Below are positions 36,001 through 39,000 of a DNA stretch of 50,702 bases, in pieces. Origin of the DNA: a virus; UHGV virus genome UHGV-0140686, one strand, 5' to 3'. A program made the position numbers. Each line of letters begins with the position of its first letter. Position 1 is the stretch's first letter.

Positions 36001-39000
36001 CGCGAGCCATCGGCTGAAGCCTGGATTCGCTGGCAGAGTATCTCCAGTCCGGATCAACCCAAACCACCGGAAGGGCAGGAAGCGCCAGAAGTACCAGAGC
36101 TCACCCCCTCTGAACGCGCTTTTCGTGGAATGCGGGCAGATGTCACGCTTTTCATTGATATTTTGCTGGATACCGACCTGCAGTATGTTTTCACCGTCGA
36201 TGATACCGAACAGGTTGAAGCAATTTACGGTCCAATCCATTCTCGACTGCTGAAACAGGCTCTCGATCTCATCCGTGATGCGGATGATGCTAAAGCAAAG
36301 TAAAAATGCCTGGCATGCAGTTTCTGATGGCGCTGGCGCTCCGGATGGGCCGCACGCTGGGCGAACTGCGACAGACTATGACGGTGGGGGAGTTCAGGAT
36401 GTGGGCTGAGTATGACCGTATCAGCCCAATCGGCGATGTGCGTAGCGATATTCTCAATGCTCAGCTTGTTTCTGCCATGTATGGATCACAGGGCGTAAAA
36501 GTGACATTTGAAGACGCACTGATCAAGTGGAACTCAGAAGAGGCTGAGGTAAGCGACAGCAGCGATCCATTTGCCGGATTAGAGGCTGCTCTTTTGGCCG
36601 CTTCTCAGTGACAAAAAACCAAGGACGGTTTAGGATTCCCTATTACTAAAGAAAAGGGGGGATTTGTGAAAAAATTATTATTTGGTTTTGTTTTTCTCAC
36701 GTCAGCAGCTAATGCAACGCAAATTCTTGAGCCTCAGGAATTGCAAAAGCTAACAAGTACCATTTGCTCCCAGCATTTAGACCCAACGCTGTGCGTGAAA
36801 GCATTTTATAAAGTTATATCATATGCCAAAGAGAATGATGATTACTTTTATTACTGTCAAAAGTCTAAGGATTCAGGAATGTCACCGGATAAAGAGTTAT
36901 GCGGTCAATCTCAAATTCTGAGAGATTTTATAGACCAGAATGCAAACTAGATTTATTAGTTGTGAAAATTAACCTGCTTCGGCAGGTTTTTTATTTTAAA
37001 GAGGTAGTGAATGGCAACCCTACGTGAGCTTATTATTAAGGTTTCAGCAAACTCTCAATCATTCCAGACTGAGATTGCCCGCGCATCACGTATGGGGCAA
37101 GACTATTATAAAACCATGCAGAATGGAGGGCGTCAGGCTGCTGCTGCTGCTAAAGAAAGTCAGCGTGCTCTTTCCGATCTTACTGATGGGTTTGCCTCTG
37201 CTGGTAGAGCCGCTACGGCAGCCGCTGCGGCCTTCGCGACAGGGAAATTAGTTCAAATCGCTGATCAGTGGAACTCTGTAAACGCAAGGCTTAAACAGGC
37301 CTCTGTCTCCTCAAATGATTTCACTTTATCTCAGACTCGTTTAATGGCTATTAGTCAGAGTACGGGTACTGCTTTTACTGATAACGCTAATTTATTTTCA
37401 CGCGCTGCTGCATCCATGCGTGAATTTGGCTACAGCTCAGATGAAGTACTCAAAATCACCGAGGCGGTATCAACAGGACTTAAGCTATCTGGTGCAAGTT
37501 CTGAAGAGGCCGGTTCTGTTATTACCCAGTTTAGCCAGGCGCTTGCTCAGGGAGTGTTACGCGGTGAAGAGTTTAATGCCGTTAACGAGGCAGGGGATCG
37601 TGTTATCCGTGCCCTGGCGGCAGGGATGGGTGTTGCCCGAAAAGACCTTAAAGCAATGGCGGATCAGGGGCAACTCACGATTGATAAAGTCGTTCCTGCA
37701 TTAATCAGTCAGTTGGGTGTTTTACAGGGAGAGTTTTCCTCGTTACCGCCGACAGTTTCCGGATCAATGCAAAAAGTAACTAACTCGTTCATGGCATGGG
37801 TCGGGGGAGTGAACCAGGCAACTGGCGCGACAAATGCACTATCTGGCGGTCTTGATGGGCTGGCGGGAACTCTAGACTCTCTTACATCTTCTGCTGTCAG
37901 CGGAGCCCTCAGTGATGTAGCAGATAATATGTCACTGATTACCACAGCTGCTGGTGGACTCGTTGGCATTGGGTTAGCCCGGTATCTTGGCGGGATTGTT
38001 ACCAGCGCAACCAGTGCCACTGGCGCACTTATTTCAGCCGCAAAATCTGAGGTGGCTCTTGCAGTAGCTCAGGAAAAAGCTGCTCAATCTTCTGTTGCCG
38101 CTTCCCGCGCTGCAGTTTATCGAGCCCAACAGGCACTTCAGAGTGCGAAAAGTGCAGATGTTCAGGCTGCACAACAGGAAAGAGTAGCAGCTGCAGAAGC
38201 AAAGGTTACTGCTGCACAGGGGCGGTTGACTACAGCCCTCGCTACGGGGACGGCTACAGAAAAAGTTCGCGCTAAAACCGCACTCGAACGTGCCCAGTCC
38301 GGGCTTGTGGCTGCAAAAAATGCCGATGCACAAGCTATTGCAGAAAGAAAACTTGCCGCAGCGCAAGCGGCGCTTAGCCGTAATATTTCAGGCAGGGTTT
38401 CTGCTCAAAATAACCTTAACAGCGTTACATCTGTTGGCACCCGGTTGATGAGCGGTGCTCTTGGGTTGGTCGGCGGTATACCTGGGTTAGTTATGCTGGG
38501 TGCTGGCGCATGGTACGCTATGTATCAAAGCCAGGAACAAGCAAGAAAGTCAGCTCAGGAGTATGCCAGCCAAATAGATCAAATCAGAGAAAAAACCTCA
38601 TCCATGTCACTTCCTGAGGTTGATAACAACCGAAAACTGACAGTTGAGGCGATGCAGGAGCAAAAGCGCCTGATTGATGAACAGCAAAAGAGTGTAAGTG
38701 GTCTTAATAAACAAATACAGGATCTTAATGAAAGTAGAAGTAAGCCGGGTATTACACAAGAGAATGATTTAAATATCACAAAGGCTATAGCCATTCTAAC
38801 TGAGCAAGTTGTTGTTGAGGAAGATAAACTCAGGCAGATGCGTGCAAAGTCGAGTGATATTTTGAAAGCACTCGAGGAGCAAGAGAGAAGAAGAAACGAT
38901 CTTATTAAAGATCGGGCTTGGCGTCAAAATGATGAATACCAGAACCTTGTAATGATGACTGGTAAATATTCGGAAGTTAACCGTTTGCTTGGTTTGGGAA

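What the first reader, a model, noticed from the sequence alone, without database searches (positions are those of the whole stretch)
36666..36997. Secreted cysteine-containing small protein inserted between tail chaperones and tape measure
A low-GC ORF with a strong SD, a classical signal peptide and four Cys in a ~77-aa mature part, followed by its own terminator, interrupts the otherwise conserved tail operon. Secreted cargo at this position suggests a lysogenic-conversion factor.
Basis: partly seen in the sequence, partly recalled or inferred. Interest (0 to 1): 0.5.

Follow-up and report, generated by a model that had tools for sequence, protein, structure and literature searches.

The report
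Phage moron encoding secreted four-cysteine protein
A small add-on gene between the tail-chaperone and tape-measure genes of a temperate Klebsiella-type phage encodes an exported three-helix, four-cysteine protein of an uncharacterised family; it sits exactly where phage HK97 carries its superinfection-exclusion gene, so it is more likely an envelope-level anti-phage factor than a toxin.

Summary
ORF 36666-36950 (+, GTG, 94 aa) has a G-rich ribosome-binding site, a signal-peptide-like N-terminus (MKKLLFGFVFLTSAANA|TQ), four Cys in a 77-aa mature part, 36% GC against 51% in the flanks, and its own terminator. It lies between gpT and the tape-measure gene (TMP). It is a real gene: dN/dS is 0.07-0.22.

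This is the archetypal moron site, the position of HK97 gene 15, a proven superinfection-exclusion gene. The protein is unrelated to gp15. It belongs to a small, uncharacterised, phage-only family (phrog_21025, no Pfam, PDB or fold match) modelled as a three-helix protein (pLDDT 93). About 70 loci from two different siphovirus tail lineages carry it, nearly always immediately 5' of the TMP.

Among the 77 closest gpT relatives the slot is never empty. It holds mutually exclusive, envelope-targeted cargos: gp15-like (38), a 3-TM protein (26), this family (11), another secreted protein (1) and a lipoprotein (1). A conserved GTGACA-17-TAGGAT promoter drives this gene, and in one relative it drives a gp15-like gene instead.

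Best reading (inferred, about 0.45): a prophage-expressed periplasmic protein that blocks DNA entry by incoming siphoviruses. A virulence role is not excluded. It is a new member of a known kind, of moderate interest.

The parts
35899..36303 (+). Tail assembly chaperone G (upstream backbone gene)
   Evidence: PF06222 Phage_TAC_1, E=4.7e-43
36306..36611 (+). Tail assembly protein T reading frame (left border of the cassette). It is in the -1 frame relative to G.
   Evidence: PF06223 Phage_tail_T, E=3.6e-18. Frame relation read. Homology with phages carrying other cargos ends at its stop codon.
36608..36636 (+). Sigma-70-type promoter-like site: -35 GTGACA (36608-36613, overlapping the T stop codon CAG-TGA-CA), 17-nt spacer, -10 TAGGAT (36631-36636)
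   Evidence: 9/12 consensus match; on its own this is not above chance. Both hexamers are invariant and the spacer is variable in five lineages of the gene (alignment A9). The same promoter region precedes a gp15-like gene in L040. Activity is not tested.
36654..36662 (+). Shine-Dalgarno-like tract AAGGGGGGA
   Evidence: Read from the sequence
36666..36716 (+). Signal peptide (residues 1-17, MKKLLFGFVFLTSAANA), with predicted cleavage after A-N-A
   Evidence: n/h/c-region heuristics and the -3/-1 rule, kept in all family members despite sequence divergence. No lipobox. The hydrophobic stretch is too short for a membrane anchor.
36717..36950 (+). Mature 77-aa protein (8.9 kDa, pI 4.9, four Cys) plus stop codon. 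Predicted three-helix protein.
   Evidence: AlphaFold2 model m6fba655273fc, pLDDT 92.9, helices at 6-17, 23-53 and 59-76 of the mature chain. Conserved C, N57, D59 and K68. dN/dS 0.07-0.22. phrog_21025 is matched by 12 of 16 members.
36971..36997 (+). Rho-independent terminator of the cassette (7-bp stem, TTCG loop, T-run)
   Evidence: An equivalent strong terminator lies between the family gene and the TMP ribosome-binding site in almost every lineage examined; the exceptions are L008/L033, where another ORF intervenes, and the decayed L012 copy.
37011..40595 (+). Tail tape measure protein (right border; the proposed functional partner or target class)
   Evidence: PF20155 TMP_3 and PF06120 Phage_HK97_TLTM. 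The N-terminus MATLRELI is shared with the HK97 TMP. Family gene identity tracks TMP identity.

Best explanation
The element is a moron: a self-contained promoter-ORF-terminator cassette at the junction between tail chaperone T and the tape-measure gene of a temperate HK97-like siphovirus, apparently of the Klebsiella pneumoniae complex.

Proposed sequence of events:
1. The ORF is transcribed from its own weak sigma-70 promoter in the lysogen, and probably also by read-through of the late operon. This step is inferred.
2. The 94-aa precursor is exported by Sec and cleaved after Ala17. This rests on sequence features.
3. In the periplasm the 77-aa product folds into a three-helix protein. The four conserved cysteines probably form two DsbA-made disulfides that staple the helix-helix turns (C34-C43 and C64-C79). 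The fold is a model; the disulfide pairing is inferred.
4. Proposed function (inferred from position and from the alternative occupants of the slot): superinfection exclusion at the DNA-injection step. The protein would interfere in the periplasm with the tape-measure-dependent conduit of incoming siphoviruses. It could do so by binding the ejected TMP, or by binding a periplasmic or inner-membrane host factor that the TMP needs. This parallels the inner-membrane protein gp15 that HK97 encodes at the same place.
For: Cassette anatomy and low GC.

Promoter: phylogenetic footprint of GTGACA-17-TAGGAT. In L040 the same promoter region, identical through the -10, drives a 75%-identical HK97 gp15 homologue instead.

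Position: HK97 has the same architecture at the orthologous junction, T, then gene 15, then a terminator, then the TMP. gp15 is expressed from the prophage and blocks genome entry (PMC3594210). Hybrids carrying the HK022 tail tube and TMP genes escape it (PMC10883804).

First slot survey (77 closest gpT relatives): the gene just 5' of the TMP is always one of several mutually exclusive, unrelated proteins, and each carries an export or membrane signal. Counts are gp15/YebO-like 1-TM 38, 3-TM 173-aa 26, this family 11, another signal-peptide protein 1 and a lipoprotein 1.

Second survey (a different tail lineage): this family 34, lipoproteins 7, another secreted protein 4, a gp15-like protein 1, a protein with a C-terminal TM segment 1. 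A non-exported 107-aa protein occupies 19 and 9 slots are empty.

Linkage: the family is found only in this context, in about 70 loci. Its divergence tracks that of the adjacent TMP down to about 30% identity.

Selection and fold: strong purifying selection and a confident fold model.

Lifestyle: the phage is temperate, with an integrase and an S24/HTH repressor.
Against: There is no functional data for any member, and no sequence or fold similarity to any known exclusion protein.

The link to exclusion rests on position and on analogy with gp15.

Phages whose TMP is 93-100% identical over about 900 aa carry the 3-TM cargo instead. The cargo type is therefore not tied to a TMP type, and the co-divergence with the TMP can be explained by physical linkage alone.

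dN/dS of about 0.1 shows no arms-race signature.

In the second lineage the slot also holds a non-exported protein in 19 loci, so not every occupant is envelope-targeted.

Promoter activity in the lysogen is untested, and the consensus scan alone is not above the shuffled expectation (3 sites found, 1.9 expected).
Confidence: 0.45

Rival explanations
1. A host-fitness or virulence conversion factor unrelated to phage exclusion. A periplasmic or released small protein would change envelope physiology, stress tolerance or host interaction of the lysogen, in the way lambda Bor and Lom do.
For: It is exported moron cargo in a temperate phage of a pathogen-associated genus. Morons encode many such functions (PMC3594210). 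Purifying rather than diversifying selection fits a housekeeping-like envelope role. The cargo is not tied to a TMP type.
Against: The family is confined to phage tail modules and always lies next to the TMP. Hosts have very different lifestyles: Klebsiella, Pantoea, Symbiopectobacterium, an E. coli phage from a swamp and a phage deposited as an Aeromonas phage. There is no chromosomal, non-phage homologue. It alternates with gp15 homologues at one slot, behind one promoter. A type I signal peptide gives no route beyond the periplasm.
Confidence: 0.25
2. A lytic-cycle accessory. The gene would be expressed mainly by read-through of the late tail operon. Its periplasmic product would act during the phage's own growth, for example by protecting progeny from abortive injection into the dying cell or its debris, or by modulating lysis timing or envelope integrity.
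For: The gene lies inside the late operon with no terminator upstream of it in the window, so late transcription is unavoidable. The gene is kept in isolated, propagated phages (AsXd-1 and SaltyDalty).
Against: Its own conserved promoter and its own terminator are unnecessary for a purely late gene. It is dispensable and replaceable by unrelated cargos in phages with near-identical tail genes. The lysis cassette is elsewhere, at 23.5-25.5 kb.
Confidence: 0.17
3. A virion or tail-assembly component, for example a TMP-associated chaperone or minor tail protein.
For: It has a fixed position directly before the TMP gene and co-diverges with it.
Against: The conserved cleavable signal peptide would remove it from the cytoplasm, where tails assemble. 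Mutually exclusive, unrelated membrane proteins and lipoproteins replace it beside near-identical G, T and TMP genes. Nine relatives in the second lineage have nothing there.
Confidence: 0.03
4. A non-coding or chance ORF in an AT-rich spacer.
For: It is short, starts with GTG, and has no Pfam hit.
Against: It is conserved from 99% down to about 25% identity, with invariant Cys. dN/dS is 0.07-0.22. The fold model is confident. It matches a PHROG family. No Rfam family reaches threshold.
Confidence: 0.01

Closest known systems
HK97 gene 15 moron (gp15, YebO-like inner-membrane superinfection-exclusion protein)
   Same: Same insertion point at orthologous flanks. T ends in DPFAGLEAAL..., the TMP begins MATLRELI, and a small AT-rich ORF with its own terminator sits just before the TMP ribosome-binding site. 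gp15 homologues are the commonest alternative occupant of this slot in the window's relatives and never co-occur with this family. In L040 a gp15 homologue sits behind the same promoter region. Both products are envelope-targeted.
   Different: There is no sequence similarity. gp15 matches PF13974 YebO and the window protein matches no Pfam family. gp15 has an uncleaved N-terminal TM helix and stays in the inner membrane. This protein has a short, cleavable signal peptide and should be soluble in the periplasm, with two putative disulfides. gp15 has chromosomal relatives (YebO; PMC3594210), whereas this family was seen only in phage tail modules.
TP-J34 Ltp and Tuc2009 Sie2009 (exported exclusion proteins of Gram-positive siphoviruses that block DNA injection)
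   Same: They are prophage-encoded, exported small proteins. They act outside the cytoplasmic membrane against siphovirus DNA injection, and escape maps to the tape measure protein (as summarised in PMC10883804). Ltp's active part is helical (from my own knowledge of Bebeacua et al. 2013; not checked here).
P22 SieA
   Same: It is prophage-expressed and blocks injection by interfering with the trans-envelope conduit formed by ejected virion proteins (PMC10883804). By my own recollection of the P22 map, its gene lies next to the ejection-protein genes it targets. That is the same 'exclusion gene linked to conduit gene' logic.
   Different: SieA is a 3-TM inner-membrane protein of a podovirus and shows no similarity. 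The 173-aa 3-TM alternative cargo at this slot resembles SieA in size and topology only. Homology between the two was not tested here.
T5 Llp, phi80/N15/HK022 Cor, lambda Bor (prophage or phage lipoproteins of the envelope)
   Same: They are small exported phage proteins that modify the envelope of the carrying cell. Cor and Llp exclude phages (PMC3594210).
   Different: These are lipoproteins that act on an outer-membrane receptor (FhuA) and are linked to receptor-binding or other genes. The window protein has no lipobox and is linked to the TMP gene, not to the tail-fibre or gpJ genes.
phrog_21025 (PHROGs v4, unknown function)
   Same: 12 of 16 family members match it, with a best E-value of 4.9e-9. 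The family therefore already exists as an unannotated phage orthologous group.
   Different: The window protein itself matches only weakly (E=0.011). No function, structure or context has been described for the group.

Membership tests
Moron (Juhala et al. 2000; as described in PMC3594210) | Extra DNA lies between two genes that are adjacent in related phages | tested here: met
   Homology to phages with other cargos breaks at the T stop codon and resumes at the TMP ribosome-binding site. Nine relatives in the second lineage have the chaperone directly abutting the TMP. Caveat: none of the 77 closest gpT relatives has an empty slot.
Moron | Nucleotide composition differs from the surrounding genes | tested here: met
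   GC is 0.36 against 0.51 in the window, and 0.32-0.42 against 0.46-0.54 in all loci except the truncated contig-end copy L037 (0.44 against 0.41).
Moron | Own transcription terminator | tested here: met
   36971-36997. Present in almost every lineage examined; not seen where another ORF intervenes (L008/L033) or in the decayed L012 copy.
Moron | Own promoter | tested here: inconclusive
   GTGACA-17-TAGGAT at 36608-36636, a 9/12 match. The hexamers are invariant and the spacer variable in five lineages. The site is shared with a gp15-like cassette. No transcript data are available.
Moron | Expressed from the repressed prophage | not testable with these tools
   Needs RNA-seq, 5'-RACE or proteomics of an uninduced lysogen.
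HK97 gp15 / YebO-like exclusion proteins (PF13974) | Sequence homology to gp15/YebO | tested here: not met
   HK97 gp15 hits PF13974 (E=1.2e-8). The window protein and all 16 family members give no such hit. blastp with gp15 finds the 38 gp15-like cargos and none of the Cys4 cargos.
HK97 gp15 / YebO-like exclusion proteins | Single uncleaved N-terminal TM helix (inner-membrane protein) | tested here: not met
   The uncharged stretch is 12 residues and is followed by an A-N-A cleavage motif. No 19-residue hydrophobic segment was detected.
HK97 gp15 / YebO-like exclusion proteins | Blocks genome entry of superinfecting phage in a tail- or TMP-dependent way | not testable with these tools
   Needs plating-efficiency, adsorption and injection assays.
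Sec (type I) signal-peptide proteins | Positive n-region, hydrophobic h-region of about 7-15 residues, and small residues at -3 and -1 | tested here: met
   MKK / LLFGFVFLTS / AANA|T. The same layout appears in all full-length members. This is heuristic only; SignalP was not available.
Bacterial lipoproteins (Llp, Cor, Bor, Ltp type) | Lipobox [LVI][ASTVI][GAS]C at the end of the signal peptide | tested here: not met
   There is no Cys before residue 34 in the window protein. The Cys in the h/c-region of the L023 and L118 homologues (GFSC) is neither canonical nor conserved.
phrog_21025 | Significant profile match | tested here: inconclusive
   The window protein gives E=0.011. 12 of its 16 homologues match, with a best E-value of 4.9e-9. 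Membership is therefore by transitivity.
Known anti-phage defence proteins (PADLOC-DB v2) | Profile match | tested here: not met
   The only hit is PDC-M04B at E=1.1e-3 (17 bits), and it is absent in homologues P0008 and P0011.

The most novel reading that the evidence does not exclude
The position immediately 5' of the tape-measure gene in enterobacterial siphoviruses may be a dedicated, polymorphic 'injection-exclusion' locus. At least eight unrelated envelope proteins are exchanged there behind shared promoters. They include gp15/YebO-like proteins, a 3-TM protein, several lipoproteins and two secreted families. On this reading the four-cysteine family would be the first soluble periplasmic member. 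It would be a disulfide-stapled three-helix protein that captures the ejected tape-measure protein, or a periplasmic factor the TMP needs such as a chaperone, before the protein reaches the inner membrane.
Probability: 0.3. Interest if true: 0.6.

Novelty: new member of a known kind. Interest (0 to 1): 0.38.

Why it matters
If the protein is an exclusion factor, it would give a small, soluble and structurally tractable probe of the periplasmic stage of siphovirus DNA injection. That stage is poorly understood: how the tape measure protein crosses the periplasm and engages inner-membrane factors. It would also affect phage therapy against Klebsiella, because lysogens carrying this prophage type would resist related siphoviruses without any receptor change.

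More generally, the slot surveys suggest a simple genomic rule, 'look just upstream of the tape-measure gene', for harvesting new envelope-level anti-phage proteins.

If it is only an ordinary moron of unknown role, the finding adds one more uncharacterised cargo family to a hotspot known since 2000.

Tried and rejected
Searches that found nothing useful:
- Pfam on the window protein and on all 16 family members gave no hit.
- A profile search of PDB sequences returned only noise at E of about 1.
- Foldseek against PDB with the first, weaker model gave nothing.
- Foldseek against viral structures (BFVD) gave nothing. The afdb50 library was unavailable.
- PADLOC gave one weak hit that was not reproduced in homologues.
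- blastn of the AsXd-1 gene copy against 5,426 complete E. coli genomes gave no match.
- Rfam gave only a sub-threshold rsmX hit (25 bits against a gathering score of 56), driven by the terminator.
- There are no flanking direct or inverted repeats that would indicate transposition.
- The primary gp15 paper (PMC3430355) is not held.

Ideas considered and rejected:
- Lipoprotein: there is no lipobox.
- Signal anchor: the h-region is too short.
- Lysis-inhibition or antiholin-type protein: it is not in the lysis cassette and shows no fold match.
- Tai or Tab-type assembly-interference systems: these are cytoplasmic and sit at a different locus.
- Co-evolution with a specific TMP type among close relatives: rejected, because near-identical TMPs pair with different cargos.
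Full report
**1. What is there**

The window is a temperate siphovirus genome or prophage. It has a lambda-type integrase (1-1185, minus strand), an HTH/S24 CI-like repressor (8803-9435, minus strand), a small and a large terminase, an HK97-fold capsid gene and a long tail operon. Its closest deposited relatives are Klebsiella pneumoniae prophages.

In the tail operon the order is as follows:
- major tail protein (35152-35868);
- chaperone G (35899-36303, PF06222);
- T (36306-36611, PF06223, in the -1 frame of G);
- the ORF in question (36666-36950);
- the tape measure protein, TMP (37011-40595; PF20155 and PF06120).

The ORF starts with GTG after the tract AAGGGGGGA. It encodes 94 aa: MKKLLFGFVFLTSAANA|TQILEPQELQKLTSTICSQHLDPTLCVKAFYKVISYAKENDDYFYYCQKSKDSGMSPDKELCGQSQILRDFIDQNAN. 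A 7-bp GC-rich hairpin with a T-run follows at 36971-36997. GC falls to 0.36 over the ORF, against 0.51 in the flanks. No ORF of 40 aa or more overlaps it on the other strand. No Rfam family reaches threshold, and no flanking repeats are present.

**2. It is a real, selected gene of a small, phage-only family**

A word-indexed search of 5.8 billion proteins found only three clusters. An exhaustive HMM search of 1.8 billion representatives found seven. A profile search brought the total to 16 clusters. They come from Klebsiella, Pantoea sp. A4, Symbiopectobacterium and metagenomes. tblastn added Escherichia phage SaltyDalty and a phage deposited as Aeromonas phage AsXd-1, at about 50% identity.

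Across identities from 99% down to about 21-25%, C34 and C43 are invariant. N57, D59, C64, K68 and C79 are at least 90% conserved. Nei-Gojobori dN/dS is 0.07-0.22 in ten of eleven computable pairs from both subgroups (0.38 in a near-identical pair with too few substitutions), most at or near synonymous saturation.

Every full-length member keeps a K/R n-region, 10-18 uncharged residues and a -3/-1 cleavage motif at residues 17-20, although these N-termini are not alignable in sequence. This is the signature of a Sec signal peptide. There is no lipobox, and the hydrophobic stretch is too short for a membrane anchor.

With a 15-sequence alignment, AlphaFold2 models the mature 77 residues at pLDDT 92.9. 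The model has three helices, at 6-17, 23-53 and 59-76. The cysteines sit at the end of helix 1, the start and end of helix 2, and the start of helix 3. I infer two disulfides stapling the two turns, but I could not measure distances in the model.

Nothing similar is known:
- no Pfam family;
- no PDB sequence match;
- no Foldseek match in PDB or BFVD;
- no reproducible PADLOC match.

Twelve of the 16 members match phrog_21025, a PHROG of unknown function. The family therefore exists in databases but is uncharacterised.

**3. The site is the archetypal moron site**

HK97 has the same arrangement at the orthologous junction. Its T ends ...DPFAGLEAALTAATQ*. Then come gene 15 (62 aa), a terminator, and a TMP that begins MATLRELI, as in the window.

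Gene 15 is the element for which the word 'moron' was coined. [quoted passage not shown] Hybrids with the HK022 tail tube and TMP genes escape it (PMC10883804).

The window protein is not related to gp15. gp15 matches PF13974 YebO and has an uncleaved TM helix. The window protein does neither.

**4. Cassette boundaries and promoter**

I aligned the window with Klebsiella phages that carry a different gene at this slot (vB_VIPKPNMC05 and ST899-OXA48phi17.2). Homology stops at the T stop codon and resumes at the TMP ribosome-binding site. Each cassette brings its own terminator.

Upstream of the ORF, the consensus scan finds GTGACA-17 nt-TAGGAT at 36608-36636. The -35 is formed by the last codon and stop codon of T (CAG-TGA-CA). 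Taken alone, this hit is not above chance.

In five lineages of the gene (window, ST13-OXA48phi12.2, two IMG/VR types, AsXd-1), both hexamers and the 17-nt spacing are invariant, while the spacer and the 5' leader diverge.

In IMG/VR locus L040 the same region, identical to ST13-OXA48phi12.2 through the -10, is followed by a 75%-identical HK97 gp15 homologue with the HK97-type ribosome-binding site. A gene of proven prophage function and the four-cysteine gene are thus interchangeable behind one promoter. This is the best available, though indirect, argument that the window gene is expressed in the lysogen.

**5. Slot surveys**

First survey. I collected the 80 closest relatives of the window's gpT in IMG/VR. 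The TMP start could be located in 77 of them.
- None has an empty slot; the T-TMP gap is 277-2029 nt.
- The gene immediately 5' of the TMP is one of several mutually exclusive cargos:
  - gp15-like: 38 loci;
  - a 173-aa protein with three TM segments: 26;
  - the four-cysteine family: 11;
  - another signal-peptide protein of 94 aa: 1 (L041);
  - a lipoprotein with an LLTGC lipobox: 1 (L116).
- KilA-N genes are sometimes inserted further upstream.

Second survey. I looked at 77 relatives of the TMP of a quite different tail lineage that also carries the family. This lineage has a DUF6260 capsid protein, a DUF6246 chaperone and a different tail terminator. Immediately 5' of the TMP it has the following:
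- the four-cysteine family in 32 loci, plus 2 with a remote 95-aa homologue;
- lipoproteins in 7;
- another secreted protein in 4;
- a gp15-like protein in 1;
- a protein with a C-terminal TM segment in 1;
- an ORF of 59 aa with no evident export signal in 1;
- a 107-aa protein without an export signal in 19;
- nothing in 9.

Both surveys take the top hits to a query, so they are biased toward relatives of the query. Even so, envelope-targeted products clearly dominate.

**6. Linkage with the TMP**

About 70 loci carry the family. In those with downstream sequence the gene ends 42-61 nt before a TMP ORF of more than 1000 aa. The exceptions are one phage with a 144-aa ORF in between (L008/L033), decayed prophages and contig ends.

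Pairwise identity of the mature protein tracks that of the adjacent TMP: 87 against 80, 58 against 68, 31 against 31, and about 30 against about 28 between the two lineages. Spearman's rho is 0.69, but the pairs are not independent. The gene has therefore travelled with the TMP gene for a long time. Its low GC is a persistent property, not a mark of recent arrival.

Physical linkage alone could explain this. Phages whose TMP is 93-100% identical to the window's over about 900 aa carry the 3-TM cargo instead. Cargo type is therefore not matched to TMP type among close relatives.

**7. Interpretation**

Shown or strongly supported:
- an accessory cassette at the HK97 gene 15 site;
- a real, conserved gene;
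- signal-peptide features;
- a compact helical model with four conserved cysteines;
- exclusive association with the 5' side of siphovirus TMP genes;
- mutual exclusivity with gp15 homologues and other envelope proteins.

Inferred:
- expression from the prophage;
- periplasmic location;
- disulfide bonding;
- function.

The most economical function is superinfection exclusion at the injection step, acting in the periplasm on the TMP-dependent conduit or on a host factor it needs. [quoted passage not shown] 2015, cited in PMC10883804 and PMC11364771).

I put this at about 0.45. A phage-unrelated envelope-fitness or virulence role is at about 0.25, and a lytic-cycle accessory role at about 0.17. 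A structural role is very unlikely, because the signal peptide would remove the protein from the cytoplasm and unrelated proteins can replace it.

**8. Novelty and score**

The kind of element is known: a moron at the T/TMP junction, probably an exclusion factor. The cargo family is uncharacterised. If the function is right, it would be a soluble periplasmic variant of a class so far represented by membrane proteins and lipoproteins.

I rate it a new member of a known kind, with interest 0.38. It offers a testable hypothesis and a useful genomic rule, but it would not surprise a phage biologist who knows HK97.

Noticed in passing
L003:2418-2939, L004:2457-2978, and 26 IMG/VR loci (e.g. L098): The alternative cargo at the same slot is a 173-aa protein with three predicted TM segments and a C-terminal domain containing Cys. 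The C-terminal domain has tblastn matches in 84 deposited phages, including about 60 Gordonia phages, all annotated as hypothetical. Its size and topology recall P22 SieA, but homology was not tested. A 36-nt hairpin (CCAATGGTAGGATTTTAGTTCTTTTCTACCTATTGG) that contains TAGGAT lies just upstream of its start codon.
   Followed up: partly
window 38500-39900 (inside the TMP gene): The central part of the tape-measure gene, which includes the PF06120 region, has low GC (0.38-0.45) and strong positive AT skew (up to 0.37), unlike the rest of the gene. The last 250 aa or so of the TMP are only about 25% identical to the otherwise 98%-identical TMP of ST13-OXA48phi12.2, so there is a recombination breakpoint inside the gene.
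   Followed up: partly
window 40598-44996: The distal tail genes are not the HK97/lambda M-L-K-I set. They comprise a 157-aa ORF, a DUF1833 protein (41058-41540), a 128-aa ORF and a gpJ-like protein with an FNIII-A domain. This matches the layout seen in the Pantoea-type lineage (L008). The tail module is therefore mosaic: an HK97-like G/T/TMP head end joined to a different tip.
   Followed up: partly
window 26001-28000: A second low-GC island (0.40-0.42) lies between the lysis genes (holin 23560-23955, endolysin-like 24223-24852) and the small terminase (27940-28404). It holds a DUF2560 ORF (26339-26668), a reverse-strand 153-aa ORF (26743-27204) and a 118-aa ORF (27403-27759) with no Pfam hit. 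This is probably another moron region.
   Followed up: partly
window 47817-50681 (minus strand): Two consecutive reverse-strand ORFs of 250 and 700 aa lie at the right end, downstream of the tail-fibre genes. They have no Pfam or PADLOC match. This is a typical position for prophage accessory or defence cargo.
   Followed up: partly
window 36290-36310: The T reading frame is -1 relative to G, but it is open only from 36294, three codons before the G stop (TAA at 36301-36303). Any G-T frameshift must therefore occur within about 10 nt (AGCAAAGTAA), where there is no canonical XXXYYYZ heptamer. Alternatively, T is initiated at its own ATG (36306).
   Followed up: no
L042, L098, L104, L106 and other IMG/VR relatives; L005:7652-8407: KilA-N-domain genes of 185-279 aa, sometimes with a 105-aa partner, are inserted between T and the TMP-proximal cargo in 14 relatives. 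In L005 a KilA-N/P63C gene sits just after the TMP. The tail operon therefore tolerates further insertions around the TMP gene.
   Followed up: no
L134 and 18 other loci of the second survey: A 107-aa protein without any export signal (MSLTSQSTQQKFPYPADKVF...) is the second commonest occupant of the TMP-proximal slot in the DUF6246-type lineage. It has no Pfam hit. It is the main exception to the 'envelope proteins only' pattern.
   Followed up: partly
L011/L012 6001-6192 (Symbiopectobacterium): The family member here is truncated to 63 aa, and the adjacent TMP and other tail genes are fragmented. This is a decaying prophage in a symbiont genome.
   Followed up: no
window 45074-47008: A 644-aa ORF after gpJ has a weak match to SASA (a sialate O-acetylesterase-like domain; E=3e-4, below the Pfam cut-off). 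It may be a tail fibre or spike with a carbohydrate esterase domain.
   Followed up: no
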